A stretch of DNA of 62,632 nucleotides from a virus (IMGVR_UViG_3300029319_009000:1-62632), one strand, 5' to 3'; shown: positions 37,363-55,289, counted from the stretch's first letter. The notes: generated by a model from the sequence alone, not told the origin. A program made the numbers and translations.

Positions 37363-37566
37363 TTACTCCTCTATTCCCCCTACCTCTTCAACACCCATCT
37401 TTACTAGCGGGGGATTTTTAACAAAAAGCTCTGCTTCGCCGTCCTCAGTTTCTGCTGCCGCAACAAACTCAAAACCTTTGAGGACTGGGACAATATCTGA
37501 TTGTTCCAAGAGGCTTTTTTGAAGAGCCATCATTACGGCTCCAACTGCTTGATCTGATAAATTCAT
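37363..37566 (-). CDS. Hypothetical protein (67 aa)
   Basis: Start reassigned to ATG 37566 (AGGAG RBS; ATGA overlap with the gmd stop). Confidence 0.6.
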   Translation of the reverse strand: MNLSDQAVGAVMMALQKSLLEQSDIVPVLKGFEFVAAAETEDGEAELFVKNPPLVKMGVEEVGGIEE

Positions 37567-38537
37567 TGTTTTAACTCCTTTTGCCATTTTTCTATCATTT
37601 CTTCTAACATTGTCTCAAATGTATATTCTGGTTTCCATCCTAAAATTTCTCTTGCCTTACTAGAATCACCTTTTAAATATTTTAATTCTTCAGGTCTCAT
37701 AAATTTTGGATTTTGCACAACATAATCTTTGTAATTCATTCCTAGTTTTTGAAATACAACTTCGCACAATTGTCTAACCGAATGAGTTTCACCTGTTGCA
37801 ACAATAAACTCGTCTGGTGTTTTGTGATTAATGATCTTGTGCATTGCCCGAACATAGTCCTTTGAATGACCCCAGTCTCTGTAGGAGTCCATATTACCAA
37901 GCTCAAGCTTATCTTGCATTCCGTTTTTAATCATTACAGCCGCTTTAACAACCTTGTTAGTGACAAAGTTTGTCCCTCTTCTAGGAGACTCATGATTAAA
38001 CAAAATTCCATTGCAAGCATGAAGACCATAAGCTGCCCTATAGTGCCTGACCAAATTAAAACCCATGACCTTTGCACACCCATATGGGCTGACCGGTGTC
38101 ATTGGTGTTGTCAACCTCTGAATTCCATCGTCGTCTACAGAATTCCCAAACATTTCAGAAGAACTAGCTTGATAGAATTTTGCCTCTGGGCATGTATCTT
38201 TATACACTTCTAATATATTTAAAACACCCAGAGCATTTGTTTGTATTGTAAATGATGGCATATCAAAACTAACCCTTACATGACTCATCGCAGCCAGATT
38301 ATATATTTCATCAGGTTTAACTTGATTGAAGATTCTATACAGCGATGGAACATCTAACATGTCTCCATAAAAAGTATAGACATCATCCGATATGTGATTG
38401 ACTCTAGAATTTTGATTTTCTGCTACGGAGTGTCTCCTCACAACTCCATAGACATCATATCCAAGGGATAAAAGGTGTTCAGACAAATAGCTACCATCTT
38501 GACCGTTTATACCAGTTATTAAAGCTTTTTTTCCCAT
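37563..38537 (-). CDS. gmd: GDP-mannose 4,6-dehydratase
   Basis: ALITGINGQDGSYL, YNLAAMSHV, QASSSEMFG, SPYGCAK, LFNHESPRRG, RDWGH. Confidence 0.96.
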   Translation of the reverse strand: MGKKALITGINGQDGSYLSEHLLSLGYDVYGVVRRHSVAENQNSRVNHISDDVYTFYGDMLDVPSLYRIFNQVKPDEIYNLAAMSHVRVSFDMPSFTIQTNALGVLNILEVYKDTCPEAKFYQASSSEMFGNSVDDDGIQRLTTPMTPVSPYGCAKVMGFNLVRHYRAAYGLHACNGILFNHESPRRGTNFVTNKVVKAAVMIKNGMQDKLELGNMDSYRDWGHSKDYVRAMHKIINHKTPDEFIVATGETHSVRQLCEVVFQKLGMNYKDYVVQNPKFMRPEELKYLKGDSSKAREILGWKPEYTFETMLEEMIEKWQKELKQ

Positions 38538-39254
38538 TTATTTTCCTTGTTTTTTGCAAACAAAAATAATCCTATGATCTTTTTCAGTTGCTGTGCTGTT
38601 AAAATCTCTGAAATTATATATGCCTTCTACACTAACATTGTTTTGCTTCATTAATTCAATCAATAATTTAGGAGACCACAAAGTAGTAAATATTTCAACT
38701 TCCTTTTCATCATATGATATCACAGTTTTACACAAAGATTCAATTAAATTTATATTAGTTTTATAAATTATTTTTTTGTCACCTACAAGCTTTTCTGAAT
38801 ATGCGTGTGGCTTATCTATAGAACAAGCTATACTATTCCAGCAATCAAATATAATTTTCCCTTCTTCTTCTAGCATGTTTGCACAATCTTCAAAGAAGCA
38901 AGACAATTCTTTTAAGTTATCAATGTGATTAACGATATTGAACATTGCTATGGCTGCGTCATATTTTTTATTTTTTTTAAAATGATCTTTAAGAGATTCA
39001 CAGTGAAAAGATAAATTTTTTGTTTTGTTATATTTTTCTCTTGCTTTGTCAATCATGCCACAAGATATATCTATTCCCGTAATAGATCTCTTTTGATTGC
39101 TCGCTAATATACTTGAGTGCACACCGGTTCCACATCCAATATCTAATATTTCTATTCTTTTTCCCAAAACAGATTCAATAAATTTACACTCTCTATCGTA
39201 ATCTTTGGAAGAATATAAGAAATCATAGTCATTCGACACTTTATTGTAGTCCAT
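38538..39254 (-). CDS. Class I SAM-dependent methyltransferase (possible sugar N/O-methyltransferase)
   Basis: ILDIGCGTG motif I, GIDIS motif II; lies between the aminotransferase and gmd. Confidence 0.88.
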   Translation of the reverse strand: MDYNKVSNDYDFLYSSKDYDRECKFIESVLGKRIEILDIGCGTGVHSSILASNQKRSITGIDISCGMIDKAREKYNKTKNLSFHCESLKDHFKKNKKYDAAIAMFNIVNHIDNLKELSCFFEDCANMLEEEGKIIFDCWNSIACSIDKPHAYSEKLVGDKKIIYKTNINLIESLCKTVISYDEKEVEIFTTLWSPKLLIELMKQNNVSVEGIYNFRDFNSTATEKDHRIIFVCKKQGK

Positions 39255-40350
39255 AATAGTCTCTTATTGTTTTGCAAACATATTCAACCTTTTCGTTGTC
39301 CATGGAGGGATACGAAGGAAGACATATGCCATTCTTGTACAACTTAACAGAAGTTTGCATATCGCCATCTAAGTACCCACGACTATCATCTAATTTTGAA
39401 AAACAAGGCTGCAAATGCAGAGGATAAAAAAATGTTCTAGTTTCTATATTGTTTTTTTCCATATGATCCATAAGCCCTTGCCTTCCATTGCTGTCTGTTA
39501 TGGCAACTCGGAAAGGAACATGATTTGATCCTTTTTCTGGCTGGTGAATCTTTATTTTTTCTATATCTTGTAAATTATTTTTGTATATTTCTAATATCTC
39601 TAGTTTACGATCTATGATTTGCGGAAGCTTACCAAACTGGGCGATCCCTATAGCAGCCTGTATATCTGTTATTCTAAAATTAAATCCAATTTCTGGGTGT
39701 ATAAATGAGCCTCGATTTATCCTTCCTTGGTTCCGAATGTATAACAATTTTTCGTATGTTTTTTCATCATTGGTGCAAACAAATCCCCCCTCACCTGTAG
39801 TAATTGTTTTGTCTGCAAAAAAAGAAAAGCTTCCAACATGACCCAAGCTTCCGCAGTGATCTCCCTGCCAGTTTACACCGATGGCTTGAGCTGCATCTTC
39901 TACTATTTTTAAGCCATTTTTTTCTGAAAATTCTTTTATTTTTTTCATATTTGCACTTGTACCATATATGTGTACAGGCATAATCGCTTTGGTTTTTTCA
40001 GAGATTTGTCTTTGGGCTTTTTCTAGATCTATGTGGAATGTTTCCTCCTCAACATCCACAAATACAGGTGTGGCTCCAGTCATTATAACAGAATTAGCAG
40101 ATGCAATAAAAGTAAAATTAGGAACTAAAACTTCGTCTCCGGGTCCAATGTTCAAAGATCTTAAAGCCATATACAAAGAGAGTGTTCCATTGTTTGCAAA
40201 AACACCGTATTTGCACCCGATTAAATCCAGTAATTTATCTGAGAATTCTTTGCATAACTTTCCTTCAGTTATCCACTTTGTATCAAAACATTGCTGTATT
40301 GCTTGATACTCTTCCTGCCCTATTGATGGTTCAAATTGAGAAACTCTCAT
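39241..40350 (-). CDS. per: DegT/DnrJ/EryC1/StrS PLP aminotransferase, probable GDP-perosamine synthase
   Basis: NGTLSL, FTFIASAN, PVHIYG, EDAAQAIG, SFSFFADKTITTGEGG (PLP Lys); two genes from gmd. Confidence 0.88.
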   Translation of the reverse strand: MRVSQFEPSIGQEEYQAIQQCFDTKWITEGKLCKEFSDKLLDLIGCKYGVFANNGTLSLYMALRSLNIGPGDEVLVPNFTFIASANSVIMTGATPVFVDVEEETFHIDLEKAQRQISEKTKAIMPVHIYGTSANMKKIKEFSEKNGLKIVEDAAQAIGVNWQGDHCGSLGHVGSFSFFADKTITTGEGGFVCTNDEKTYEKLLYIRNQGRINRGSFIHPEIGFNFRITDIQAAIGIAQFGKLPQIIDRKLEILEIYKNNLQDIEKIKIHQPEKGSNHVPFRVAITDSNGRQGLMDHMEKNNIETRTFFYPLHLQPCFSKLDDSRGYLDGDMQTSVKLYKNGICLPSYPSMDNEKVEYVCKTIRDYYGLQ

Positions 40351-40353
40351 ATT

Positions 40354-41001
40354 TTATGCACCTCTTTTATTATAATACGACCCAACAGTAAACGACTTTC
40401 CTGTTGTTGCTGAAGTTTTTGAATACTTTTCATCGTACTTACTTACTGGCAATACTCTGAAGTCTATTGAAACTCTGGTTGTACCTGTCGTATTTATTTT
40501 GTTTCCGTGGCGAAGGGTGCCTCCACTAAACTGAAATATGTCTCCGTGTTTCATTGTGATTGGTTTATAGTCGCCAGCCATTGGTGCACTCTCCACCCAA
40601 ACTGCGTTTGTATCGTAACAGTCTGTTAGTGGTAAAATAAAATTATGCTCTCCTTGGGGGTGATTGTACCCTTCTTGTGTGTCAACATGAAACTCTGGTG
40701 TTGCCCAATTATTAACTAAGTGAACCCTTAGTGTTGGCATTTTTTGAAAAACAAAATCTTCACCAACTATTGGAAATATCACTTCTTCAATAATATTGTT
40801 GTATATACTTAAAAGACTTCCCTCTGATCTAAGATTTTGATAGAATCTATCATGCAAAATAGTGTCAGAGTTGTTACTCATATCAAATTTATCAAACGAA
40901 TATTCTTTGTGAAGATTGTCCAAACTGTTAGTGGTTTGAAATACCTTTTGCATCTCTTCGTACAATCCATACGCTTTTGCATTAAAATTGTGTATCTTCA
41001 T
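40354..41001 (-). CDS. 2OG-Fe(II) oxygenase-fold protein (StrG-like)
   Basis: PTLRVH, FHVD (HxD), LRHGNKINTTGTTRVSIDFR distal His and R-x-S. Confidence 0.7.
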   Translation of the reverse strand: MKIHNFNAKAYGLYEEMQKVFQTTNSLDNLHKEYSFDKFDMSNNSDTILHDRFYQNLRSEGSLLSIYNNIIEEVIFPIVGEDFVFQKMPTLRVHLVNNWATPEFHVDTQEGYNHPQGEHNFILPLTDCYDTNAVWVESAPMAGDYKPITMKHGDIFQFSGGTLRHGNKINTTGTTRVSIDFRVLPVSKYDEKYSKTSATTGKSFTVGSYYNKRGA

Positions 41002-41420
41002 TTGGCACTCTCATCAATATCCTTCTTGTCTTTTAGCATACCATAATAAGGACCATTTTTAAACTCATAAAGCCTAGTATCGTCCTCCAAGACCTCAAAG
41101 CAGTGCCCAGCATTAAAAGCTACAACACAGTCGCCAGATTTCAATACATGATCTGAGTATAGCGTGTCATCGATGTCATAGAATTTTGCGTGTATTTTTC
41201 CGTCTAAAATAACCCACGCTTCTTGTGTTTGAACAGTGTTTCTCTCTAGTGGAAGATGCTTGTGAGGTTTGAAAAAATCTGTTTTTTTTAATTTTTTACA
41301 TGATGCTTGCAAGCATTCTGTTTCTGGTGATAGGTCTTTTCTTTTTTCTTCTATAGAGTCATATTCGTTTATTACATACAATAATATACTTTTGTCAACT
41401 TTTGAAAAAAACTTTTTCAT
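40998..41420 (-). CDS. Cupin-fold protein (WbuC/sugar isomerase-like)
   Basis: PHKH..QEAWVILDG..GHCFEV..EFKNGPY metal-binding cupin pattern. Confidence 0.75.
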   Translation of the reverse strand: MKKFFSKVDKSILLYVINEYDSIEEKRKDLSPETECLQASCKKLKKTDFFKPHKHLPLERNTVQTQEAWVILDGKIHAKFYDIDDTLYSDHVLKSGDCVVAFNAGHCFEVLEDDTRLYEFKNGPYYGMLKDKKDIDESAK

Positions 41421-42292
41421 TTATTTATCACCCTCTCTAGTACAGGCCACATATTGTACCTATCTAGTATTAATTTTCTTGCTTTTCTAATATCATCAAT
41501 CCTAGATTCATAATCATCTTGTTCAATAAATTTGGCAACATCCTCAACTACCTGCTGGTGATCCTTTGTTATATCAATTTTTAAAAATGATTTTTTTGGA
41601 AAGTATTTTTCTAAGTCAGCACCACCCCAATATATGGGAACACACCACCTTAATATTGCATCTGTAAATTGAGTTCCAAAAAAGTCTCTTGCTATATCTT
41701 GGTTATCAAAAGCTAATGTGTATTTATACGAATCTAAAGCATTTGTTTTATCATTGTTATCTAGCTCTTTATTAGCATACCTAATTGGTCCATATAAATC
41801 TAGCAAATTTGGACACAAAGACATAAACTTTCCCAAAAAGTCGTGCCTTAAAACATGACCATAAGTCATTCTCTTATCGCTCTGAACACAACTTAGTATA
41901 TCACTTTTTTTTGGTGGGGTTTGTTCTTTTTTTAACTGATCATATGTAAGACCGATGCCTCCGCTGGACTTATTAGGATACCACCACTTAGTCCACAATA
42001 TATTTGTCCCATCCCAAAATGAATTTCTACTGACTTGGCTTGGAGGATAGAATTGTTGTATTTGTGGCGTCATGGCTTCTCTAGAAAAATATAATATTTT
42101 TTCTTTTTCAAACCTTTGAATTAGATGTGGATCGCACTGATCTTGGACTACCACATAGTCCGCCTCGTTTTCATCTACGGTATATGTTATATTTGACCAC
42201 ACACCACTATCGTTTGGAGATTGCTTAATGTAGTCTTGTACCATCTGTTCTGATGTGAGACCCCAATTTGGGGCAAAGTATATTTTTTTCAT
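41417..42292 (-). CDS. GT10 (alpha-1,3-fucosyltransferase-like) glycosyltransferase, divergent
   Basis: YKYTLAFDN..FFGTQFTDAILRWCVPIYWG resembles the GT10 YKF.LAFEN..Y.TEK..DA....VPIY.G motif. Confidence 0.75.
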   Translation of the reverse strand: MKKIYFAPNWGLTSEQMVQDYIKQSPNDSGVWSNITYTVDENEADYVVVQDQCDPHLIQRFEKEKILYFSREAMTPQIQQFYPPSQVSRNSFWDGTNILWTKWWYPNKSSGGIGLTYDQLKKEQTPPKKSDILSCVQSDKRMTYGHVLRHDFLGKFMSLCPNLLDLYGPIRYANKELDNNDKTNALDSYKYTLAFDNQDIARDFFGTQFTDAILRWCVPIYWGGADLEKYFPKKSFLKIDITKDHQQVVEDVAKFIEQDDYESRIDDIRKARKLILDRYNMWPVLERVINK

Positions 42293-42318
42293 TTTTATTT
42301 ATTTAATTTGGTATTAAA

Positions 42319-43116
42319 TTACTCATATAGTCTATAATGTGAGTAAGTGTTATTTAATTCAATCTCTTTTTGACCAACAAATCTATCCCATATTCTGCGG
42401 TCTTTTGTTCCGGGTGAAGGATTTAGGTCCTTTCCCCACCAACTCCTTGTTATTTTCCAATCCCTTGGCATGCAATACTTAGATATCTTAATATCAACAT
42501 CTAAAGAATTTAAATAATTCATCCAAGTATTTTCAGTATTATGAGATCTTTTAGTTTCATAAAAGTGATTATAAAATTGACAAACTTTATCAATTTTTTT
42601 ACTATCAGAAAAACACAAAATGTCGCTTGCACTACCCAAGAATACTTGACATATCCAAAGAAATTGTGTTTTTTCTATTTCATTACAAAATAAACCATTA
42701 TAGTAGATAATGTCTGGTCTACTCATAACAACTACATCATATTCAAAGTCATTATTTTTTTCATGCTCTTTTTTTAATTCATTAACCTTGTACTTGCTAT
42801 ATTGAGAGTATAGTACGCCCTCCTCACATTGATTATGAAATATAGTTTTATTAGGATTTTTAATATCTTGCTCTTCAACTAGCATATTTACCGGCTTATA
42901 TATCGATTTTATTTTATCTATATCGATTGGACAGTTGTCTACTTTTAGATATCCATCATGCCAAGTTGGGGTTTGAGGCTCTAAATAATTCCAAGTATGT
43001 ATAAACACATCACATTCATACTTGTCTTTTAAATTATTTTTTAAAAAGCTAAACGACTGATGCGTGAAGCCATAACTCCTCATATGACCAAAAAATAAAA
43101 AAGCTAATTTTTTCAT
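42319..43116 (-). CDS. Putative GT-A-like glycosyltransferase / glycan-locus hypothetical protein
   Basis: LAFLFFGHMR, DVFIHTW, YDVVVMSRPD pattern seen in polysaccharide-locus proteins. Confidence 0.55.
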   Translation of the reverse strand: MKKLAFLFFGHMRSYGFTHQSFSFLKNNLKDKYECDVFIHTWNYLEPQTPTWHDGYLKVDNCPIDIDKIKSIYKPVNMLVEEQDIKNPNKTIFHNQCEEGVLYSQYSKYKVNELKKEHEKNNDFEYDVVVMSRPDIIYYNGLFCNEIEKTQFLWICQVFLGSASDILCFSDSKKIDKVCQFYNHFYETKRSHNTENTWMNYLNSLDVDIKISKYCMPRDWKITRSWWGKDLNPSPGTKDRRIWDRFVGQKEIELNNTYSHYRLYE

Positions 43117-43559
43117 ATTATGTAATCTTCTATGCCCAAAATAAAGTCAGAACAAACTCCCGCCACACAGCTCTTTATTTGCCAATTTGCTCTTTCGGGC
43201 ATAACACATATAGAGTTTTCAGTCAAGTACTTTCCGGGATAAGTCCAAATATACCCATCACTTGTGAGCGTAGCATCATCTGTATTATGAAAAAAGCATC
43301 TTACATTATTTTTCATTAGGAATTGTAAGGCTTCTATGTTTTTACAATGACACCAAAATTTATCATTTTTTAGAAAGCTTAAATCTACTAAATGCTCAGG
43401 CATATCATGACCTAAGTATAACTTATTTTCTATTAGCCAAACATCAATTTCTACATCAAAGCCTTCTTTTAGTGCCTCCACAATGTAAGATGGATGATTC
43501 TCGTATCTTTGATTTGGACCTTTAATGTTGCCTCGATGAGATATTGATTTAAACTTCAT
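43113..43559 (-). CDS. Minimal glycerophosphodiester phosphodiesterase-like (PLC-like) protein
   Basis: ISHRGN, EN, VEIDVW, LGHD, GVCSD motifs. Confidence 0.78.
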   Translation of the reverse strand: MKFKSISHRGNIKGPNQRYENHPSYIVEALKEGFDVEIDVWLIENKLYLGHDMPEHLVDLSFLKNDKFWCHCKNIEALQFLMKNNVRCFFHNTDDATLTSDGYIWTYPGKYLTENSICVMPERANWQIKSCVAGVCSDFILGIEDYII

Positions 43560-43869
43560 ATTTGTCCCCCGGAACTGATGGAGACTTTATGCAAATCACT
43601 TCACAGTCTTCAAGAAAAACTGGGTCTGCTACTTCTCCCGGATAAACAATGAATATGTCACCAGCTACTAATTCTTCATTGCACATTTTCATCCGACCTC
43701 TTATGAGTAAATTAATTTCTGTCCCTATTTTGTGCATATGCTTTTGCCAAATTTCTCCCTTTGGGTGAACCTTGTAGCAAACTTCAAAATCTTCACTTTT
43801 AAAAGCAGTTGGTTCGAAATTACCCACAAACCAGCCTGCCTTCATGTTTTCTATTCTAAGTTTTTTCAT
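43549..43869 (-). CDS. Small cupin-fold protein
   Basis: GWFVGNFEP, HMHKIGTEIN, GDIF; start placed at ATG 43869 downstream of GGAG. Confidence 0.72.
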   Translation of the reverse strand: MKKLRIENMKAGWFVGNFEPTAFKSEDFEVCYKVHPKGEIWQKHMHKIGTEINLLIRGRMKMCNEELVAGDIFIVYPGEVADPVFLEDCEVICIKSPSVPGDKYEV

Positions 43870-43927
43870 GACTTTATATCGCTCCAATCTACATCAAAAA
43901 ATTTTATGCTCAATTGAACGGTGTTCA

Positions 43928-45115
43928 TTAAATCTTTCCCCATTTCTCAATTGCTTGATAATATTCTTCTCCGTATTCTTTATCAATACTTTGGCGCATA
44001 GCTTTTGCCCCGCCAAGAGATCCTCCGGGGTGTCCATGTATCGCACCGCCCACATTAGCCATGTAATCAACTCCAAACCTTTCGTTAATTGCATCGATCA
44101 AACCGGGATGCATTCCGCAACTAAGTGCTGGCAATACTCCATGATTAGTTAAAATATCAAGGGTTGCCTTTAAGTCTTCCTCATTATCGGACAGATACCC
44201 TCCCCACATTCCAGCATGAATAAAATCCACACCCATAAGACCAGCTAGATCACACAATACATCCCAAGCTATATTAAAGTCATGGTTTTTGTTAGTTAGA
44301 ATTTTATCTCCGCTTTTTTGAAAGTGTACAAACAATGGAAGGTCCAATTCTCTAATTGACTTATACACCCCAAGCCCACTCCAAAAGTTAATATGAACAG
44401 CATTACCGCCAAGTTCATGCACCCTTTTAACCCTATCAATGACGTGCATAGCGTCAGAGTTTATACAAACAGCATAAACAACATTCTTATCCTTAAGATA
44501 ATCCATTATCATAGGTACCCTAACTTCAATTGGACAGATGGCAGGATTAGCCATGATTTCATCTTCTTTAATGAAGTTAACTCCTCCTTCAACCATCTGC
44601 TTAACCATTTCAAGCAATACCTCTGGGGTTACTCCGATTTTTGGCTTTACAATGCCTCCAAACAAAGGCTTGTCATGACATTTAGTAAACTCTCTAATTC
44701 CACTAATTCCAAACTTAGGACCAAGGAAGTATTTTTCTTTTACTGTTTCTGGTATGTCAAGCTTTAAAAGTTGGCATTTTTCAAAGATATCAATATCTAA
44801 TTGACCGCCCATAAGCTGACATAGCAGATGTGATATGCCGTCTGTTTCAAAGTCTGTATTTACAATCGGAAAGGCTATCGTTACTTTTCCTTCTGTTAGT
44901 TTTTCTAGCTCTTCTTCATCACCAACTATCATGCAGGAATGATTTTCAAAAAGTTCATCTGTTTCCCACGAATTTCTAACATTTGGATTCCCCACAGATT
45001 GACCAACAGCTAATCCCCATGCAGCATCACGAAGTGTTGTCTTAGATTTAATATTATAATCGGCAATAATATACTTGTTTTTATCTAGATTTTCATTTTT
45101 TCTAAAAAGATTCAC
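43928..45115 (-). CDS. rlp: RuBisCO-like protein (form IV RLP), non-carboxylating
   Basis: GPKFGISGIR, GGIVKPKIG (K175/K177), NFIKEDE (K201/D203/E204), DFIHAG, GGAIHGHP.G...GA.A.RQ; several carboxylase residues substituted; no small subunit. Confidence 0.93.
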   Translation of the reverse strand: MNLFRKNENLDKNKYIIADYNIKSKTTLRDAAWGLAVGQSVGNPNVRNSWETDELFENHSCMIVGDEEELEKLTEGKVTIAFPIVNTDFETDGISHLLCQLMGGQLDIDIFEKCQLLKLDIPETVKEKYFLGPKFGISGIREFTKCHDKPLFGGIVKPKIGVTPEVLLEMVKQMVEGGVNFIKEDEIMANPAICPIEVRVPMIMDYLKDKNVVYAVCINSDAMHVIDRVKRVHELGGNAVHINFWSGLGVYKSIRELDLPLFVHFQKSGDKILTNKNHDFNIAWDVLCDLAGLMGVDFIHAGMWGGYLSDNEEDLKATLDILTNHGVLPALSCGMHPGLIDAINERFGVDYMANVGGAIHGHPGGSLGGAKAMRQSIDKEYGEEYYQAIEKWGKI

Positions 45116-45852
45116 TAGTTATTCTCCTTATCTTTTTCCAATAGAATTAGGAAGTCTTCAAGCTCTTCCGGTGTTCCCATGCCTCTCCACTCGTAGACTG
45201 GATATGGTATTACTTTACCATTTTCTACATGTATTAATTCATTATAAACTGGACAGACGTAAAATTCATTATTAAATCTAATATTTTTTCTGATCATTGA
45301 TTTAGCATTTTCAACATATGACGCTCCTGTCTTCCAATAATACACACCAACAGTCGCCAAATTACTAATAACTTGTTTTTCAGCAACTTGAGTTACATTC
45401 TTAGTATTATAGTTTATTTTTGCGTATGAATATTTTGGACTATCAGACAGGAAATATGGGATAGCACCATCGCACTCTTGTTTTCTGACAAAATTTATAA
45501 AATGATTACCATCCCAATCTATCCACTGGTCTGAATTGCAAATAAGTAATTCTTGATCATTATCAATAAATTCTTCCGCTAGAAGGGCTGTACAGGCCGC
45601 ACCTTCGGTTAAGCCATCAGTCAAAACTATTTCTACATCGGGCTTTAAATCTCTTAATTCTTTTTCAAAATATGGATATTTTTCAAGGTGTCCTTTTTGT
45701 AAAATAAAAATATATTTTCCTTCTAAATTAATATTATCTACGACTCTTTTGATCATAGGTATACCATCAACTAAAATTAGAGGCTTTGGTCTCTCAAAGC
45801 CTTCTTTCGCAAATCTACTTCCGGCTCCCGCCATTGGTATTAAAATATTCAT
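45115..45852 (-). CDS. Sugar-phosphate nucleotidyltransferase (NTP transferase / GT-A fold)
   Basis: ILIPMAGAGSRF..PKPLI, TEGAACT, NSDQ, VAEK, EFYVCPVYN, MGTPEEL. Confidence 0.88.
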   Translation of the reverse strand: MNILIPMAGAGSRFAKEGFERPKPLILVDGIPMIKRVVDNINLEGKYIFILQKGHLEKYPYFEKELRDLKPDVEIVLTDGLTEGAACTALLAEEFIDNDQELLICNSDQWIDWDGNHFINFVRKQECDGAIPYFLSDSPKYSYAKINYNTKNVTQVAEKQVISNLATVGVYYWKTGASYVENAKSMIRKNIRFNNEFYVCPVYNELIHVENGKVIPYPVYEWRGMGTPEELEDFLILLEKDKENN

Positions 45853-45862
45853 ATTATATTCC

Positions 45863-46723
45863 TTAAATCATTTCTAAAATTTCTTCTATGGTGAATTTAT
45901 CTGCTTCGGAAGAATCTTTGCCATCTTCTAGTATTTTTTCATGAAGATTTTCTCCGGGCTGAAGCCCTATTTCTTTAATTTTCAATTGTTTTCCGGGTGG
46001 TAAGTATTTTTCTGCCATGGCTTGAAGAAGGTCTCCAACGCTCATTGATTTCATTTCTGGTACGTATGGGCTGCAATTAGATGCTTTGTTCATGCACTCA
46101 AATATTAGATCTACTGCCTGATTTACTGTCCAAAAATATCTTGTCGCAGACGGGTCTGTAACGATAACCTCCCTACCTTCTTGAAGAAGTTTTTTCCATT
46201 TACATAGCACTGAACCTGTTGAGTATAGCACATTTCCATATCTCAATATTCTATATTTAATATTAGGATAATTTCTTTCAAATTGCAAGAACATTCTTTC
46301 CATTAAATACTTTGTTGCCCCGTATACTCCATTTACTTGCGCTGCCTTGTCTGTGCTAATTCCAACTACAAACTCTATATTGTTTTTGGATGACTGCTCT
46401 AATATATTTAAAGATCCCAAAATATTAGACCTTACGCACTCTCTTGTCTGAACCTCTGATATTCCTACATGCTTAAAAGCCGCTAAATGAAATATCCCTG
46501 TAACACCCTTCATTGCCTGATGCACGTCGAAAGGATCGCATATATCTCCTGTGTATATTTCTACAGTTGGAAATTCTTGCTTTAACTCAATTAATTTACC
46601 CTCATCTCGTGCAAGAACAACTACAGAGCCGCCAGAATTAATAATTCTTCGGATTAATTCTGCTCCAAGAAAACCACTTCCTCCAGTTACCAAATACCGA
46701 TTGCCTTTTTCAATATTTATCAA
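45863..46723 (-). CDS. UDP-GlcNAc 4,6-dehydratase-like SDR (PseB/CapD family)
   Basis: VTGGSGFLG, HLAAFKHV, STDKA, YGATK, RYGNV, IGLQPGENLHE. Confidence 0.88.
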   Translation of the reverse strand: MINIEKGNRYLVTGGSGFLGAELIRRIINSGGSVVVLARDEGKLIELKQEFPTVEIYTGDICDPFDVHQAMKGVTGIFHLAAFKHVGISEVQTRECVRSNILGSLNILEQSSKNNIEFVVGISTDKAAQVNGVYGATKYLMERMFLQFERNYPNIKYRILRYGNVLYSTGSVLCKWKKLLQEGREVIVTDPSATRYFWTVNQAVDLIFECMNKASNCSPYVPEMKSMSVGDLLQAMAEKYLPPGKQLKIKEIGLQPGENLHEKILEDGKDSSEADKFTIEEILEMI

Positions 46724-46744
46724 TTTATTTCACCCTTTATTGTA

Positions 46745-47527
46745 TTATTTCCTTCCAGAATCACTGCCATCTAAGTGCGATATAATTTTTTCATCATGGC
46801 TTGACCCATAGTTGTATATGCCCCATTTCTTATGGGCACTGTCAAAACCCAAAATAGAGATGTCTTTTTTATAAAAGAGATTTAAATTATATTCAACTAT
46901 TCCAGTTATTCCATCTCTATTAATTGCAGCATATTTTACCCAATCTTTTTTAAATTTATCAACTCTTAGAATATGTGGATGTGTCGCTATGCAGTCCGTT
47001 TTCATAAAATAATGATCGTTAATGTTTTGCTCTTCAACATATGTTTCCCAAAAATCCTCATCCCCAACTTCTGGGTTGTCAATATGAGCCAACTGATTTT
47101 TTCTTTTATTAAATCTAACAAAATTTATCTCGTCTGTTTTGTGCATGGCTGTTAAAAGCTTTGCAGTATCTATATTTCTTAAGAAATTCCAATCATGCTC
47201 ACAAAAAAGGACATATGGAGTAGTGCTTGAGTAAACAGCCCTAACATAGTTATCTCTTAAACCTGTATTAAGAAATCCGCTGTGCCTACATTCTTTAATT
47301 TCTATGTTCTCTATTTTTTTAAGATTCTTTATATATTCTTTGTGGTTAACATTGTCAATGTCGCTATCACAATAAACAATAAATTTGCACTCATTAATAT
47401 TGGAAAATCTTTTTCTTATAGATGATATGGTTGATTCAATGACCGCAACAGAAGGTGCAGACGGAAGAACGTGTGTTGTTATTACAACCGTTAAAAGATC
47501 TTTAAGTTTTTGGTTGTTGGCTCTCAC
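46745..47527 (-). CDS. Putative GT-A fold glycosyltransferase
   Basis: LTVVITTH, TPYVLFCEHDW (DxD-like), C-terminal HLDG. Confidence 0.65.
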   Translation of the reverse strand: MRANNQKLKDLLTVVITTHVLPSAPSVAVIESTISSIRKRFSNINECKFIVYCDSDIDNVNHKEYIKNLKKIENIEIKECRHSGFLNTGLRDNYVRAVYSSTTPYVLFCEHDWNFLRNIDTAKLLTAMHKTDEINFVRFNKRKNQLAHIDNPEVGDEDFWETYVEEQNINDHYFMKTDCIATHPHILRVDKFKKDWVKYAAINRDGITGIVEYNLNLFYKKDISILGFDSAHKKWGIYNYGSSHDEKIISHLDGSDSGRK

Positions 47528-49517
47528 TTCCTATCTCACAAATCATTCTAACATCAACTTTGTCTTTATCTTCGTTTCTGTTAATTTTCATCTTTTTTAC
47601 AACTTCTATACCAGCAAATTTTACACCAAAAAGATAAAAATGTTTAGAAGGATTGTGAATAATTTCATGTCTAGTGTCCGAATAATGCTTCTCTTCTTCG
47701 TTGTGGCAAGAAATGTCTGTACTTAAATATCCTATATTTTTTTTGTGTAAAAAATCTATATCTCTGCAATCTCTTAGCCCATATGCACTAAGGACTGCGC
47801 TTGAATCTACGCAAAAATCGCCTTTATCTTGTCTATTATCAACGATGTTTTTGTATGTTCTAAAGAAGTCATCAAACTTGTTTGTTTCTGACCAAACTCT
47901 ATAATTTAACATGTGTACACTATTTTGATTATATATACTAGATGCTATTCTCCAAGTTTCCGCTTGTGTATCATTGATGTGAACAGAGTGTTTTCCGTTG
48001 CCACATAGTTCTCTTATATTTTCTTTTAAAACATCTAAATTTGACCTATTTTCCTCTTCGACCAAAAGAGTTGCGACAACATTTCCTTCGGTAAAACAAT
48101 ATGATTTTTTTTCAATTACTCCGGGTAGACCCTGCTCTTTTGTACCAATCCAAGGTTCACCATAGTATAGGTTGTGTATGTAATTTTTTTGACCTTGATC
48201 TGTTAATTCAACAGACTTTTCATAAACAACATTTACACTTTCGTTGATCAAATCTTTGATTTTTTGAATATCGACATCATGGGATGGAAACAAACTTATA
48301 GTATAAAGATTATCTTTATTTCTGCAAAATTCTAATGCCATTTCATCGGCATAATCTCTTCTAAGACCTTCTTTAACAATGTCCTTTTTATTTAAAAAAT
48401 AATTTGCTGTGCAATCTATCTGTCCTTTTGAAATGTCAGATTCTTCAGATAAAACATTTTTACCTAATGCGATGCAAGATGCGATTCTATGAGCACCATT
48501 AATTGCTAATCCCTTAATTGTTGGAATTTTGCCATGAGATTCTTCAAAGCCATTGTCTTTTAGAGACTGTATGGTCTCTTCAAAGGATTCTAAAAAGTCT
48601 TTCTGTCCATCTTTGGGAGGATCTTTTTCTACAAAACCATTCCAAACTTCCAAATGATGAAGATATAAATCTTTTGCAAAATCTGATTGATTGTTGTTTA
48701 ATATGCTCTTTGCATAAATTGTCTTTGCTGCAATATCAAATCTGTTAAATCTAAGAAAATCACTTGCTTTTTTATAATCTTGTAGCGGCTTATATTTTTC
48801 TTTTGATCTAATTTCCTTTTCTAATTTGACCTGATATGTGTTGTCAACCTTGTGATCGTTTAGTGGATTTACAAGATTGTATGCATATAGCATGTCTTTC
48901 ACATAATGACTTTTATAAGAAGACATCTCTAACATTGGAAACATAAAAGCAAGATCCCAAGCCATTCTGTAAAAGTTTCCTTCTGTATCTAAGAAATCTT
49001 CTTTTTTAATTTTGCTCCAAAGAAAATATTTAAATGTCCTCAAGTGAGAAGAGCACCACTCTGATTCTCTAAAGGCGTTATTTCTAATAACACTCTCGGG
49101 GATTTGTCTTGCAAACTTTCCCCTTTGCTTAGATGGATATTCAATGTAACTTCCATATGTCATCCAGCATTTTTTTTGATTGTAAATGTCATTAAGTTTT
49201 GTTAAAACATCAGCACTAGCAAACCAATCATCTCCATCAAGTGTTACAATAATGTCTTCTTGTTTGGGATTAGAATATTCAATTCCATCATAAATGTTTT
49301 TTAAAGCAAAAGACTTTTCTTCTCTGTTTATTAAAACAAAGTTGTCTTTTCCCTCTATTTCTTTTTCAATAATCTCTCTTGTCGAGTCTGTCGATATATC
49401 ATTCAACAATATGCACTGATAATTTTTATATTTTTGTGCCATCACAGACCTGATGCATAATTTGATATATTTTTCTACATTATAAAATGGTATGATTATT
49501 TTAAAGTGATTCTCCAA
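47502..49517 (-). CDS. GT2 glycosyltransferase fused to additional domains (ParB/Srx-like, NDK-like, nucleotidyltransferase-like)
   Basis: IIIPFYN, NDISTD, LDGDD (GT2); INGAHRIA; KHSVHIND; DSSAVL..YGLR...DIDF and KMK..R..KD..D. Confidence 0.75.
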   Translation of the reverse strand: MENHFKIIIPFYNVEKYIKLCIRSVMAQKYKNYQCILLNDISTDSTREIIEKEIEGKDNFVLINREEKSFALKNIYDGIEYSNPKQEDIIVTLDGDDWFASADVLTKLNDIYNQKKCWMTYGSYIEYPSKQRGKFARQIPESVIRNNAFRESEWCSSHLRTFKYFLWSKIKKEDFLDTEGNFYRMAWDLAFMFPMLEMSSYKSHYVKDMLYAYNLVNPLNDHKVDNTYQVKLEKEIRSKEKYKPLQDYKKASDFLRFNRFDIAAKTIYAKSILNNNQSDFAKDLYLHHLEVWNGFVEKDPPKDGQKDFLESFEETIQSLKDNGFEESHGKIPTIKGLAINGAHRIASCIALGKNVLSEESDISKGQIDCTANYFLNKKDIVKEGLRRDYADEMALEFCRNKDNLYTISLFPSHDVDIQKIKDLINESVNVVYEKSVELTDQGQKNYIHNLYYGEPWIGTKEQGLPGVIEKKSYCFTEGNVVATLLVEEENRSNLDVLKENIRELCGNGKHSVHINDTQAETWRIASSIYNQNSVHMLNYRVWSETNKFDDFFRTYKNIVDNRQDKGDFCVDSSAVLSAYGLRDCRDIDFLHKKNIGYLSTDISCHNEEEKHYSDTRHEIIHNPSKHFYLFGVKFAGIEVVKKMKINRNEDKDKVDVRMICEIGSESQQPKT

Positions 49518-49520
49518 AGC

Positions 49521-50369
49521 CTATTCTCCTAGATACTTCAATACAATCTCAGGTATTTGTAATCTTTTTTCTTTCATTTTGTCGATGAGAGGTTTCCCCT
49601 TTAATGTGAACCACTCTTCGCTTGTTGCTCCAATTTTACTATTTGTAATAACTTTACAATCTAACATCCTTGCTTCAACAACAATCCTCGAAAGAGTCTC
49701 TAGCGTTTTTGGAAAGAATACCAGTGATTTATTCTTGTTCAATCTTGTTAAAAATTCTTGGTGCCCACAAGGCATAATCTTATCTATTTTAAGTCCTTTT
49801 GCCTTGCAATACATGATGCATCCTTCCAAGTTTTTATTTGGAATATTTGAGTACATTACAGAGCACACATCTTCTTTTTGGTCTTGTGGAATTATAATTT
49901 TCTCTAAGTGATCTAGTAATTCTTCTGACCATAAATTACCAGAAACACTGATAACATTGCCAGTTTTAATATTTTTCTCCACCACCTGCATGTGAAGCTT
50001 AGACTGACAAACAACCACCTTTGCTTTGCTGTAAAAGTCTCTATTGATTATTTGATCTTCTGGTGCCAAGTAATCTTCAAATGGAGACGGATCTCTTGTT
50101 CTGAGATACTTGTGGTCGTGCTCATAGATTATGTAAGAATAGTTTTCTTTGATATAATCTTTTACTTCTTCCGTTAGGGCAACAAAATTAGCAATAATTA
50201 TTTTTGCTTCTTTGTCAGGTAGGTTTTGAATGGTTAATCCACGGGTATGGTATTTTTTTACATCATTACCCTTATTTATTAATAACTTAATTAACTCTTC
50301 GTTATTTAGTTCTCCCCCCCCACTGATTCCATCCTCAACAAAGAAGTCGGCTAAAAAAGCGATTTTCAT
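49521..50369 (-). CDS. Putative GT-B (GT4-like) glycosyltransferase
   Basis: N-terminal GGGE, C-terminal ETLSRIVVEARML (E-x7-E). Confidence 0.7.
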   Translation of the reverse strand: MKIAFLADFFVEDGISGGGELNNEELIKLLINKGNDVKKYHTRGLTIQNLPDKEAKIIIANFVALTEEVKDYIKENYSYIIYEHDHKYLRTRDPSPFEDYLAPEDQIINRDFYSKAKVVVCQSKLHMQVVEKNIKTGNVISVSGNLWSEELLDHLEKIIIPQDQKEDVCSVMYSNIPNKNLEGCIMYCKAKGLKIDKIMPCGHQEFLTRLNKNKSLVFFPKTLETLSRIVVEARMLDCKVITNSKIGATSEEWFTLKGKPLIDKMKEKRLQIPEIVLKYLGE

Positions 50370-55285: not shown

Positions 55286-55289
55286 GCAG

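What the first reader, a model, noticed from the sequence alone, without database searches (positions are those of the whole stretch)
43113..45852. Phage-encoded RuBisCO-like protein in a four-gene module (nucleotidyltransferase, RLP, cupin, phosphodiesterase) inside a glycan locus
Seen: a 395-aa RuBisCO large-subunit homologue whose GTG start overlaps the stop of a sugar-phosphate nucleotidyltransferase. It is followed by a cupin and a minimal GDPD-like gene. By eye it keeps K175/K177 (KPK), the carbamylation/Mg site (KEDE for KDDE), H327 (IHAG) and the phosphate glycines. It appears to have lost E60 (AVGQSVG), N123 (QLMGG), H294/R295 (HFQK) and loop-6 K334 (MWGGY). Established: these residues are needed for carboxylation, and characterised form IV RLPs act as enolases, isomerases or (trans/de)carboxylases in methionine salvage or sugar-acid catabolism. 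Inference: here enolate chemistry is used biosynthetically, making an unusual (rearranged or branched) sugar/polyol phosphate that the nucleotidyltransferase activates for the neighbouring glycosyltransferases. It is not a CO2-fixation AMG.
Basis: partly seen in the sequence, partly recalled or inferred. Interest (0 to 1): 0.92.

Follow-up and report, generated by a model that had tools for sequence, protein, structure and literature searches.

The report
Phage RuBisCO-like enzyme paired with nucleotidyltransferase
A marine phage carries a non-carbon-fixing relative of RuBisCO that is almost always encoded next to, or fused with, a sugar-activating enzyme inside sugar-coat gene clusters, which points to an unrecognised biosynthetic job for this enzyme family.

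Summary
The window is a T4-like phage fragment (IMG/VR). On its minus strand lie a PF00483 nucleotidyltransferase (NTase), a 395-aa RuBisCO large-subunit homologue (RLP) whose GTG start overlaps the NTase stop, a small metal-type cupin and a 148-aa GDPD-like protein. All sit inside a 16-kb glycan locus.

The enolisation/Mg site is kept (K175, K177, K201, D203, E204, H327). The carboxylation residues are replaced (E60G, N123G, H294Q, K334Y).

The RLP belongs to a monophyletic clade (support 0.999) that is separate from MtnW, OiaX-like and form III sequences. This clade occurs in phages, SAR11, Legionella, DPANN archaea and other lineages. Within 5 kb of the clade's RLPs, an NTase is present in 52 of 58 loci and in 0 of 8 outgroup loci. 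NTase and RLP are also found fused in both orders. The GDPD-like gene (29/58) and the cupin (20/58) are facultative.

Best reading: an enolising isomerase that works with the NTase to make an unusual nucleotide-activated sugar for surface glycans. It is not a CO2-fixation gene. The substrate is unknown.

Phage RLPs were already reported in 2018, with function left unclear. My searches found the NTase coupling in no paper.

The parts
45115..45852 (-). Sugar-phosphate nucleotidyltransferase (245 aa), the near-invariant partner of the RLP.
   Evidence: PF00483 4.8e-11. Family profile vs PDB: 4evw (uncharacterised V. cholerae pyrophosphorylase) 2.7e-37, then GDP-mannose pyrophosphorylases, GlmU, RmlA and HddC-like proteins; LicC only 3e-4 over the N-terminus. 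Within 5 kb of the RLP in 52/58 loci. Directly adjacent on the same strand in 31/56.
43928..45115 (-). RuBisCO-like protein (395 aa, GTG start overlapping the NTase stop). Member of an NTase-linked RLP clade.
   Evidence: PF00016 111.8 bits. Best PDB match is G. kaustophilus MtnW 2oej at 1.6e-39; form III 2cwx at 2.7e-34. Every NCBIfam equivalog is far below its cut-off. Clade of 76 sequences with SH-like support 0.999. Residue map.
43549..43887 (-). Small single-domain metal-type cupin (112 aa as called; probably 106 aa from the ATG at 43869).
   Evidence: Motif G(X)5HXH(X)4E(X)6G with H50, H52 and E57 invariant. Cupin_7 sub-threshold in 4/4. AF2 plus Foldseek: 41 matches at E<=1e-3, and all listed rows are cupins, including KdgF. 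Present in 20/58 loci, usually between the RLP and the NTase.
43113..43559 (-). 148-aa GDPD/PLC-like phosphodiesterase-fold protein ('mini-GDPD').
   Evidence: Invariant H8-R9, E20-N21, E37-x-D39 and H51-D52, aligned to the catalytic motifs of P. furiosus GDPD. Foldseek top hit is GDPD 1v8e, E 5.7e-4. No GDPD hit in Pfam. Present in 29/58 loci. Also found in cyanophages S-CAM9 and S-8S56 without an RLP.
42319..43116 (-). orf265: recurrent neighbour of unknown family, probably a glycosyltransferase. Start overlaps the GDPD-like stop by 4 nt.
   Evidence: No Pfam family over threshold. Homologues in 13/58 RLP loci and 3 paralogues in the S-CAM9 locus. The ESM Atlas nearest clusters are auto-named 'glycosyltransferase family protein', score 0.97 (a lead only).
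41417..42292 (-). GT10-like (fucosyltransferase-family) glycosyltransferase downstream of the module.
   Evidence: PF00852 1.3e-10. Homologues in phage loci L007 and L009.
37563..53421 (-). Surrounding glycan-biosynthesis locus, all on one strand and tightly packed.
   Evidence: GMD, methyltransferase, DegT, GT10-like, Polysacc_synt_2 SDR, GT2 (671 aa), CTP_transf_like and GT1.

Best explanation
The gene encodes a catalytically competent, non-carboxylating member of the RuBisCO large-subunit superfamily. It belongs to a distinct clade whose defining trait is coupling to a PF00483 sugar-phosphate nucleotidyltransferase.

Proposed mechanism (inferred): the enzyme uses the retained carbamylated-Lys/Mg2+ site and K175/K177 to enolise a keto-sugar that carries phosphate. 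The substrate is either a ketose mono- or bisphosphate acted on before nucleotide activation, or an NDP-linked open-chain ketose acted on after it. The enzyme then re-protonates the enediolate, giving an isomer or epimer.

The NTase makes the NDP-activated form. The cupin (a metal-dependent isomerase or tautomerase) and the GDPD-like phosphoesterase are optional tailoring or trimming steps. Neighbouring transferases (orf265, GT10-like, GT2; LicD in Legionella) install the product on a surface glycan.

In the phage this would be part of a host-surface or virion glycan-remodelling cassette shared with SAR11 and other cells.

Shown: the gene content, the residue pattern, the clade and the linkage. 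Inferred: the direction of the pathway, the substrate and the product.
For: (1) Homology: PF00016 at 111.8 bits, and PDB matches across residues 16-379.

(2) Residue pattern over 76 clade members. Enolisation and metal residues are invariant: K157, K159, K183, D185, E186. The residues needed for CO2 addition, hydration and cleavage are replaced by other invariant residues: G38, G104, Q266, Y307. There are also clade-specific invariants H241, C333 and N43. This is the pattern of an active enzyme with a different reaction.

(3) Both phosphate sites are largely kept: P1 = G334, G356/357; P2 = K/R267 in 72/76 and H300 in 70/76. In the true MtnW used as outgroup, the P2 positions are P and L. This suggests a substrate with two anionic groups.

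(4) Linkage. An NTase lies within 5 kb in 52 of 58 non-duplicate loci. It is adjacent in 31/56, and in 13 more it is separated by only a 224-345 nt gap, which is the cupin's place. None of the 8 outgroup RLP loci has one. Gene order is shuffled between lineages.

(5) Fusions. NTase-RLP fusions make up 8 of the 120 listed homologues (P0033 confirmed by Pfam). One RLP-NTase fusion, P0121, has the opposite order.

(6) Context is glycan synthesis in the window and elsewhere:
- a chromosomal SAR11 contig with LepA beside GT17-GDPD-NTase-RLP-NTase-orf265;
- Turneriella and Francisellaceae loci with GT2;
- Legionella loci with a divergently adjacent LicD phosphotransferase;
- DPANN loci with GMD.

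(7) Precedent for a nucleotide-linked open-chain ketose: CTP + fructose-6-P gives CDP-6-D-fructose, which is then modified (PMC10918830, abstract read).
Against: - No biochemical data exist, and the substrate cannot be read from the sequence.
- The NTase family looks more like anomeric sugar-1-P enzymes than like LicC. A ketose phosphate with a primary phosphate would be an unusual substrate for it.
- One locus with 8 kb of flank on both sides (L016) has the RLP between arginase, ornithine cyclodeaminase and a methyltransferase, with no NTase.
- The cupin and the GDPD-like gene are absent from about half or more of the loci, so the 'four-gene pathway' is not obligatory.
- NTase + GDPD-like + orf265 occur without an RLP in cyanophages, so part of the module works independently of the RLP.
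- H300 (=H327) is Q in 5 of 76 members.
- Many cellular loci come from MAGs or SAGs and could include mis-binned phage DNA. A complete Pelagibacter chromosome, Legionella isolates and a Nonomuraea isolate do not have this problem.
Confidence: 0.62

Rival explanations
1. Methionine-salvage-type chemistry. The RLP is an MtnW-like enolase, the GDPD-like protein stands in for the MtnX phosphatase, and the cupin stands in for the acireductone dioxygenase MtnD. Together they recycle methylthio-sugars, or a similar diketo-phosphate, during infection.
For: The best NCBIfam and PDB matches are MtnW-type enolases (NF007095 at 171 bits; 2oej at 1.6e-39). The triad RLP + phosphoesterase + metal cupin mirrors MtnW/MtnX/MtnD. 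That pathway is described in PMC6302742 (passages read); the cupin nature of MtnD is recalled.
Against: Scores are far below the equivalog cut-offs (171 vs 409; 146 vs 513.6). A true MtnW (P0199, 705 bits) lies in the outgroup, and the clade is separated with support 0.999. The MtnW base position (the N123 column) is Gly in 75/76. No MtnK, MtnA or MtnB-like genes appeared among the recurrent neighbours. The constant partner is an NTase, while the cupin and GDPD-like genes are facultative. The locus is glycan biosynthesis.
Confidence: 0.06
2. The RLP is a decarboxylase or transcarboxylase like the D-apiose-pathway RLPs (OiaX type). It acts on a 3-oxo-acid sugar phosphate to yield the ketose phosphate, or a branched sugar, that the NTase activates.
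For: The family hit to OiaX is 131.5 bits. RLP decarboxylases exist (PMC6302742 passage on apiose RLPs). The retained Mg/carbamate site would stabilise the same enediolate. This reading is still compatible with the NTase coupling.
Against: 131.5 bits against a cut-off of 700. The OiaX-like sequence P0216 lies in the outgroup. No kinase, dehydrogenase or other acid-sugar pathway genes recur next to the clade.
Confidence: 0.12
3. It is a true, if unusual, carboxylase: a form III-like enzyme of a nucleotide/AMP salvage route, acting as a carbon-fixation auxiliary metabolic gene.
For: The form III model scores as high as the MtnW model (170 bits). K175, K177, K201, D203, E204 and H327 are kept, which is more RuBisCO-like than most RLPs.
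Against: E60, N123, H294 and K334 are all replaced, nearly invariantly, across 76 sequences. 170 bits is far below the cut-off of 497. No AMP phosphorylase or ribose-1,5-bisphosphate isomerase is among the neighbours, whereas genuine form III fusions with IF-2B do exist elsewhere (P0161, P0203).
Confidence: 0.02
4. The RLP has no catalytic role in the pathway. It is a scaffold or regulatory subunit of the NTase, or the adjacency reflects co-transfer of a mobile cassette without a shared pathway.
For: The substrate is unknown. The cassette is clearly mobile across phages, bacteria and archaea.
Against: Metal and catalytic lysine residues are invariant in 75-76 of 76 sequences down to about 32% identity. 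Independent fusions exist in both orders. Linkage persists through shuffled gene orders.
Confidence: 0.05

Closest known systems
Phage 'form IV-like' RLPs of Jaffe et al. 2018/2019 (Mol Biol Evol, PMC6389311)
   Same: RLPs on IMG/VR phage contigs, some of them Myoviridae. They are highly divergent, lack several catalytic residues and group with Beckwithbacteria sequences as an outgroup to other RLPs (passages read). My clade also contains a Beckwithbacteria MAG locus (L024, 58% identity). This is very probably the same clade.
   Different: That paper left 'possible functionality unclear'. Its main text has 0 occurrences of nucleotidyl, glycosyl, polysaccharide or cupin. The NTase linkage and fusions, the SAR11, Legionella and DPANN members and the glycan context are added here. 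Its supplementary figures (gene maps) could not be seen.
MtnW / YkrW 2,3-diketo-5-methylthiopentyl-1-phosphate enolase (B. subtilis, G. kaustophilus; PDB 2oej, 2zvi)
   Same: Best sequence match in the PDB. Same fold, Mg/carbamate site and K175. Enolisation without carboxylation.
   Different: Below the equivalog cut-offs and in a different clade. The MtnW base Lys (N123 column) is Gly here. K177 and the P2-site residues are kept here but lost in MtnW. The genomic context is glycan plus NTase, not methionine salvage.
Rhodospirillum rubrum RLP (5-methylthio-D-ribulose-1-phosphate 1,3-isomerase)
   Same: A precedent, largely recalled, that an RLP can move a carbonyl along a ketose-1-phosphate through enediolates. 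The papers are cited in the reference list of PMC6302742.
   Different: Not tested here, because no labelled sequence of it was available. It works in SAM/MTA salvage, not with an NTase.
OiaX-type RLPs of D-apiose catabolism (3-oxo-isoapionate-4-phosphate decarboxylase)
   Same: Same superfamily. They act on sugar-acid phosphates through an enediolate.
   Different: 131.5 bits against a cut-off of 700. They are catabolic and fall in the outgroup of the tree.
Form III RuBisCO of the archaeal AMP pathway
   Same: Similar score (170 bits). KPK, the K-D/E-D-E motif, the H327 equivalent and the phosphate glycines are shared.
   Different: E60, N123, H294 and K334 are replaced. There are no AMP-pathway neighbours. 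Not a carboxylase.
CDP-6-D-fructose / CDP-6-D-glucitol pathway of C. jejuni HS:5 (PMC10918830), and bifunctional NTase-cupin phosphomannose isomerase/GDP-mannose pyrophosphorylases (the latter recalled)
   Same: These are working analogies. An NTase activates a ketose phosphate, and a second enzyme then modifies the nucleotide-linked open-chain sugar (abstract read). NTase + cupin isomerase pairing also occurs in sugar-nucleotide synthesis.
   Different: No RLP is involved in either. The NTase family of the C. jejuni enzyme was not compared here.

Membership tests
RuBisCO large-subunit superfamily (Pfam PF00016) | Significant match to the catalytic TIM-barrel domain model above the gathering score | tested here: met
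   111.8 bits against a cut-off of 30.1, residues 136-378; confirmed on the genome.
RuBisCO large-subunit superfamily | N-terminal alpha+beta domain (PF02788) | tested here: inconclusive
   No PF02788 hit at E<=0.01. However, PDB and NCBIfam alignments run from residue ~14-16 through the N-domain region, and 2 of the 120 listed homologues carry PF02788.
Bona fide RuBisCO (forms I-III, carboxylase) | Complete catalytic set: E60, N123, K175, K177, K201, D203, E204, H294, R295, H327, K334 | tested here: not met
   E60->G38, N123->G104, H294->Q266, K334->Y307, R295->K267. Form III model 170 bits against 497, form I/II-type models 148 against 438 and 83 against 489.
MtnW (DK-MTP-1-P enolase) | Equivalog HMM score over the cut-off and membership of the MtnW clade | tested here: not met
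   171 against 409 and 146 against 513.6. A true MtnW (P0199, 705.6 bits) lies outside the 76-member clade (support 0.999).
MtnW (DK-MTP-1-P enolase) | Catalytic Lys at the N123 position; methionine-salvage gene neighbourhood | tested here: not met
   Gly in 75/76 at that column. The recurrent neighbours are NTase, GDPD-like, cupin, orf265, SDR and GT2.
OiaX (3-oxo-isoapionate-4-phosphate decarboxylase) | Equivalog HMM score over the cut-off | tested here: not met
   131.5 against 700.
Phage/Beckwithbacteria 'IV-like' RLP clade (Jaffe et al.) | Divergent RLP on myovirus-like phage contigs, grouping with Beckwithbacteria sequences outside the other RLPs | tested here: inconclusive
   The window is an IMG/VR record with a baseplate wedge gene, PhoH and tRNAs. 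The clade contains Beckwithbacteria MAG locus L024 and is separate from the other RLPs.
NTase-linked RLP clade (defined here) | Signature GQSxGNP, GGQ, KPK, K-E-D-E, HxN, FQKSG, H-x-G-M, GGY, SCG, plus a PF00483 NTase adjacent or fused | tested here: met
   All signature residues are present in the window protein. The NTase overlaps it by 1 nt.
Sugar-phosphate nucleotidyltransferase (PF00483) | Pfam match over the cut-off; N-terminal G-x-G-x-R NTP-binding loop | tested here: met
   43.1 bits against 21.2. 'PMAGAGSRF', with G9, G11 and R13 invariant or nearly so in 19 homologues. Substrate specificity is not testable in silico.
Cupin superfamily | Double-stranded beta-helix fold and cupin motif 1 G(X)5HXH(X)3-4E(X)6G | tested here: met
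   The motif is present and invariant. Foldseek gives 41 matches at E<=1e-3, and all listed rows are cupins. Pfam is only sub-threshold (Cupin_7, E 0.011-0.00015). The His of motif 2 is not present.
Glycerophosphodiester phosphodiesterase (GDPD, PF03009) | Pfam match; full (beta/alpha)8 barrel of ~230-250 aa; catalytic His pair, Arg and metal-binding Glu/Asp/Glu | tested here: inconclusive
   No GDPD hit in Pfam in 6/6 members. Only 148 aa. The N-terminal motifs HR, EN, ExD and HD are conserved and align to P. furiosus GDPD. Foldseek's best hits are GDPDs, but with E 5.7e-4 to 1e-2 and TMq ~0.5. The position expected for the third metal ligand appears to be H71-x-K73 (my reading; the GDPD residue roles are recalled).

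The most novel reading that the evidence does not exclude
The RLP is an anabolic ketose-1-phosphate to aldose-1-phosphate isomerase. It would use MtnW-type proton abstraction next to the phosphate to form a 1-phosphoenediolate, then close the ring. This would convert an abundant central ketose bisphosphate (sedoheptulose-1,7-, fructose-1,6- or ribulose-1,5-bisphosphate) directly into a glycosyl-1-phosphate for the fused or adjacent NTase.

The GDPD-like protein, or a HAD domain, would trim the distal phosphate. The route would bypass the usual isomerase + kinase or mutase steps.

This would be the first biosynthetic, non-CO2-fixing role for the RuBisCO superfamily. It would be a widespread determinant of surface-glycan diversity in SAR11, DPANN archaea, Legionella and their phages.
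Probability: 0.15. Interest if true: 0.9.

Novelty: new variant of a known kind. Interest (0 to 1): 0.74.

Why it matters
Every RLP with an assigned function works in salvage or catabolism: methionine/MTA salvage, and apiose and acid-sugar breakdown. If this clade is hard-wired to a nucleotidyltransferase inside glycan loci, enolate chemistry from the RuBisCO scaffold has been recruited for sugar-nucleotide biosynthesis.

The clade is abundant. More than 100 clusters at 66-95% identity were found in marine metagenomes. It occurs in SAR11, one of the most numerous bacterial groups in the ocean, and in phages. It may therefore underlie part of the surface-glycan variation that governs phage-host recognition in the sea.

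It also gives enzymologists a sharply defined, directly testable two-enzyme system (RLP + NTase, naturally fused in some organisms). And it warns annotators that 'ribulose-bisphosphate carboxylase large chain' labels on viral contigs do not mean carbon fixation.

Tried and rejected
- INPHARED phages: blastn of the four-gene region and tblastn of the RLP found no match. No cultured phage in that collection carries this RLP, though the window's own record may be masked.
- PHROGs on ten window proteins gave only baseplate wedge, PhoH and glycosyltransferase families.
- My first pairwise reading of the HMMER alignment with MtnW put H264 at the H294 position. The 163-sequence alignment shifts this by two residues (H294 = Q266).
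- LicC-like phospho-alcohol NTase idea: the Legionella LicD neighbour suggested it. The NTase profile matches full-length sugar-1-P enzymes far better than LicC. It is kept only as an open alternative.
- HAD as a replacement for the RLP: rejected as a simple either/or, because the complete Pelagibacter locus has both a HAD_2-NTase fusion and the RLP-NTase pair.
- Complex prediction on RLP + NTase: verdict 'no answer', score 0.00. Not used as evidence either way.
- The look-up of sequencing runs: no RNA holder listed. The holders are marine or estuary DNA metagenomes. Nothing can be said about expression.
- Literature: searches found no paper linking an RLP to a nucleotidyltransferase, cytidylyltransferase, O-antigen or capsule cluster. 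Terms included RuBisCO-like + phage; + nucleotidyltransferase + viral; + virus/form IV/metagenom; + Pelagibacter; + cytidylyltransferase; + polysaccharide biosynthesis/glycosyltransferase; SSN/genome neighbourhood; ribulose bisphosphate carboxylase + O-antigen gene cluster; RuBisCO + capsular polysaccharide + nucleotidyltransferase. The library lacks most subscription journals. Tabita et al. 2007 (PMC2168653) is not held, so its 'IV-GOS' group, which I recall, could not be checked.
- Supplements are closed. The supplementary gene maps of Jaffe et al. may already show these neighbours.
- Rows dropped before the counts: near-duplicate phage loci L006, L010, L011, L012 and L013; ORFs under 90 aa; ORFs more than 60% overlapped by a longer ORF. 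This filter removed the GC-rich Azospirillum locus L054, which shows RLP, NTase, cupin and GDPD-like. It also removed an 85-aa NTase fragment at the contig edge of L025.
- The tree used only sequences of 340-520 aa and holds no form I or II sequences, because none was among the 150 best representatives.

Full report
WHAT IS THERE

The window is a 62.6-kb IMG/VR virus record, estimated 35% complete. It has a T4-type baseplate wedge gene, a PhoH gene and four tRNAs. Its nearest cultured relatives by baseplate protein are only 32-35% identical: Microcystis phage Mel-JY01 and Flavobacterium phages.

Nearly all genes run on the minus strand. From 37.5 to 53.4 kb lies a glycan locus. It holds GDP-mannose 4,6-dehydratase, a methyltransferase, a DegT aminotransferase, a GT10-like transferase, a Polysacc_synt_2 SDR, a 671-aa GT2, a cytidylyltransferase-like protein and a GT1.

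Inside this locus the four ORFs of the finding are exactly as described:
- NTase, 45852..45115;
- RLP, 45115..43928. Its GTG shares one base with the NTase stop codon (TAGTG) and is preceded by AAGGAG;
- cupin, 43887..43549;
- a 148-aa ORF, 43559..43113, that overlaps the cupin by 11 nt and the next gene (orf265) by 4 nt.

The layout is that of one translationally coupled operon.

IDENTITY OF THE FOUR PROTEINS

The RLP matches PF00016 at 111.8 bits. It aligns over residues 16-379 with solved RLPs and form III RuBisCOs: 2oej MtnW at 1.6e-39 and 2cwx at 2.7e-34. No curated NCBIfam equivalog comes near its cut-off: MtnW 171/409 and 146/513.6, form III 170/497, OiaX 131.5/700.

The NTase is PF00483. 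A profile of 19 RLP-adjacent NTases finds the uncharacterised V. cholerae pyrophosphorylase 4evw at 2.7e-37. After that come GDP-mannose pyrophosphorylases, GlmU, RmlA and HddC-like enzymes over most of their length. LicC matches only at 3e-4 over the N-terminus.

The cupin has the classical motif 1, with H50, H52 and E57 invariant. It has sub-threshold Cupin_7 hits in 4/4 members. Its AF2 model (pLDDT 77) has 41 PDB matches at E<=1e-3, and all listed rows are cupins, among them the small sugar-acid tautomerase KdgF. Homologues begin at its Met7, so the ATG at 43869 is the likelier start.

The 148-aa protein has no GDPD hit in Pfam in 6/6 members. Three things still point to a GDPD-like protein:
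- its invariant HR / EN / ExD / HD motifs align with the catalytic N-terminus of P. furiosus GDPD, the only PDB protein its profile finds (two sequence variants, E 0.022 and 0.24);
- its AF2 model (pLDDT 86) ranks GDPD structures first, although weakly (E 5.7e-4, TMq ~0.5);
- the ESM Atlas gives GDPD as the nearest named cluster, at a score (0.84) that is only a lead.

I accept 'GDPD/PLC-like phosphoesterase fold, much reduced', with moderate confidence.

ACTIVE SITE

I aligned 163 sequences. There were 76 clade members and 87 others. The others include a true MtnW, OiaX-like, form-III-like and DeepYkr-like sequences, labelled with NCBIfam.

Retained in the clade:
- K175 (K157, 76/76) and K177 (K159, 76/76, against 26/87 outside);
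- K201/D203/E204 (K183/D185/E186, 75/76);
- H327 (H300, 70/76);
- S379, G381 and G403/404.

Replaced, by residues that are themselves nearly invariant:
- E60 -> G38 (followed by Q39, 76/76);
- T65 -> N43;
- N123 -> G104 (followed by Q105, 67/76);
- H294 -> Q266 (75/76);
- K334 -> Y307 (75/76);
- G380 -> C333 (74/76);
- a clade-specific H241 (75/76; Met or Leu elsewhere).

R295 is K or R in 72/76.

By established RuBisCO enzymology (recalled), the retained set is the one that binds Mg2+ and makes the enediolate. The lost set serves CO2 addition, hydration and C-C cleavage. Retention of both phosphate sites, which MtnW has lost on the P2 side, suggests a substrate with two anionic groups. That could be a bisphosphate or a nucleotide diphosphate ester. 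This is inference.

PHYLOGENY

In a FastTree (LG+gamma) tree of the 163 sequences, the 76 sequences of this type form one clade with SH-like support 0.999. All labelled MtnW, OiaX-like and form-III-like sequences fall outside it.

Forms I and II were too distant to be among the 150 best representatives and are not in the tree.

DISTRIBUTION AND LINKAGE

The word-index search found 2827 homologues. More than 100 clusters at 66-95% identity came from marine metagenomes, on contigs up to 193 kb. The exhaustive search over 50%-identity representatives found 1198 hits, with a sharp fall from about 40% to about 33% identity at the edge of the clade.

Eleven IMG/VR loci were fetched, representing about five independent lineages. 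The GDPD-like gene is present in 11/11. The NTase is present in 9/9 loci with enough flank. The cupin is present in 7/9. Gene order differs between lineages.

A scan of one genome per GTDB species returned 59 loci. The clade (>=37% identity) occurs in:
- a complete Ca. Pelagibacter chromosome and many SAR11 single-cell genomes;
- Legionella maceachernii, L. nautarum and L. drozanskii;
- Nonomuraea rosea, Azospirillum oleiclasticum and Turneriella;
- Francisellaceae and Verrucomicrobia;
- Beckwithbacteria and other Patescibacteria;
- Woese-, Nano- and Micrarchaeota.

Over 58 non-duplicate loci, the window included, counts within 5 kb of the RLP are: NTase 52, GDPD-like 29, cupin 20, orf265 13, SDR 13, GT2 12. 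The NTase is the immediately adjacent same-strand gene in 31/56. In 13 more it is separated by only a 224-345 nt gap, the place the cupin occupies.

Four of the five loci that lack an NTase are cut by contig ends. One, L016, is a true exception: there the RLP lies among arginase, ornithine cyclodeaminase and methyltransferase genes. None of the 8 loci with outgroup RLPs (27-30% identity) has any of these neighbours.

Fusion proteins exist in both orders. NTase-RLP fusions account for 8 of the 120 listed homologues, one of them a cluster of 11 member sequences (Pfam on P0033). RLP-NTase is seen in P0121.

Cellular context is again glycan synthesis:
- a SAR11 contig with LepA beside GT17-GDPD-NTase-RLP-NTase-orf265;
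- GT2 next to the Turneriella and Francisellaceae pairs;
- GMD next to several DPANN pairs;
- a LicD-family phosphotransferase divergently adjacent in the four Legionella/Tatlockia loci.

WHAT THE MODULE REALLY IS

The conserved core is RLP + NTase. The cupin, the GDPD-like protein and orf265 are frequent accessories.

Cultured Synechococcus myophages (S-CAM9, S-8S56 and others) carry a 52-53% identical NTase as the C-terminal half of a HAD-NTase fusion. They also carry a GDPD-like homologue (41% identity, E 3e-33), two or three orf265 paralogues and a separate HAD hydrolase, but no RLP and no cupin. The Pelagibacter chromosome has both a HAD_2-NTase fusion and the RLP-NTase pair in one locus. 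So the GDPD-like protein follows the NTase family rather than the RLP itself.

MECHANISM (INFERENCE)

The most economical reading is this. The RLP enolises a phosphorylated keto-sugar and returns the proton elsewhere, giving an isomer or epimer. The NTase supplies or consumes the nucleotide-activated form. The metal cupin isomerises or tautomerises. The GDPD-like protein, or a HAD domain, removes or transfers a phosphate. The neighbouring transferases then install the unit.

Whether the RLP acts before or after nucleotide activation is open. CDP-6-D-fructose formation and its later modification in C. jejuni (PMC10918830, abstract) shows that nucleotide-linked open-chain ketoses are real intermediates.

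A bolder variant is that the RLP converts a ketose-1,n-bisphosphate into a glycosyl-1-phosphate through a 1-phosphoenediolate. This is chemically allowed by what MtnW does (recalled). It would explain the retained two-phosphate site, the sugar-1-P-type NTase and the phosphoesterase accessories. Nothing tests it here.

COMPARISON WITH WHAT IS KNOWN, AND NOVELTY

RLPs on phage contigs were reported by Jaffe et al. (PMC6389311). They found about 80 non-redundant sequences, some from Myoviridae, grouping with Beckwithbacteria, with function 'unclear' (passages read). Novel GOS RuBisCO-homologue groups were noted in 2007 (PMC1821046; passages read). So the existence of the gene is known.

None of my nine literature searches found the NTase coupling, the fusions, the glycan context or the SAR11, Legionella and DPANN members. 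Jaffe's main text does not mention nucleotidyl-, glycosyl-, polysaccharide or cupin. Supplements could not be read.

I file this as a new functional variant of a known kind: an RLP with a new, probably biosynthetic, context.

VERDICT

Interest is 0.74. The finding is surprising to RuBisCO and RLP specialists, is ecologically widespread, and is directly testable with two proteins. It is not the first sighting of phage RLPs.

Noticed in passing
Protein P0167 (metagenome representative, 583 aa): A TIR_2 domain is fused to a full RuBisCO N+C homologue (TIR 3.3e-13, PF00016 9.8e-46). This is an odd pairing of a defence/signalling NADase-type domain with a RuBisCO-family enzyme.
   Followed up: no
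Proteins P0161 (726 aa) and P0203 (742 aa): Fusions of an IF-2B family domain (the ribose-1,5-bisphosphate isomerase type) with a RuBisCO N+C homologue outside the NTase clade. This puts two consecutive AMP-pathway enzymes in one polypeptide.
   Followed up: no
L014 (Synechococcus phage S-CAM9, NC_031922) 8043-8501; L015 (S-8S56) 7043-7501: The GDPD-like homologue (41% identity to the window protein, E 3e-33) is a 152-aa ORF. The records annotate only a shorter 'hypothetical protein' (locus 8214-8501 and 7187-7501), so the annotated start probably cuts off the catalytic HR/EN motifs.
   Followed up: partly
window 43869 vs 43887: The cupin ORF as listed starts at a TTG. All four homologues start at the position of its Met7 (ATG at 43869), so the protein is probably 106 aa.
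   Followed up: yes
L042, L043, L031, L032, L034-L036 (SAR11 single-cell genomes) and DPANN loci L037-L049: A sub-clade (support 0.997) has two different NTase paralogues. In SAR11 they flank the RLP (GDPD-NTase-RLP-NTase). In DPANN one is adjacent and the other lies divergently a few kb away, often with GMD. The role of the second NTase is unexplained.
   Followed up: partly
L016 7989-9179 (uncultured bacterium MAG, 66-kb contig): A clade RLP (63% identity) with no NTase within 8 kb. It sits between arginase, ornithine cyclodeaminase and amino-acid permease genes and a methyltransferase. This is the one clear exception to the linkage.
   Followed up: partly
window 5872-10176, 10204-13782, 14916-21362, 21365-25015, 29261-34054: Five very large minus-strand ORFs (1192-2148 aa) lie around the baseplate wedge gene. 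They are presumably fibre or baseplate structural proteins. They were not scanned against any family library; four smaller neighbouring ORFs (13776-14876, 25015-26982, 34072-35007 and others) gave no PHROG match.
   Followed up: no
window 54194-54895 and 53418-54191: A 233-aa protein has a sub-threshold Pfam hit to the ATLF zinc-metalloprotease-type domain (21.1 bits against a cut-off of 27.4). It lies next to a PD-(D/E)XK nuclease (PF12705, 1.3e-17), just downstream of the glycan locus.
   Followed up: no
window 55209-55363, 57619-57702, 59510-59586: Four phage tRNA genes: Met-CAT, Ile-TAT, Leu-TAA and Arg-TCT. All read A/U-ending codons, in keeping with the 32-40% GC of the window.
   Followed up: no
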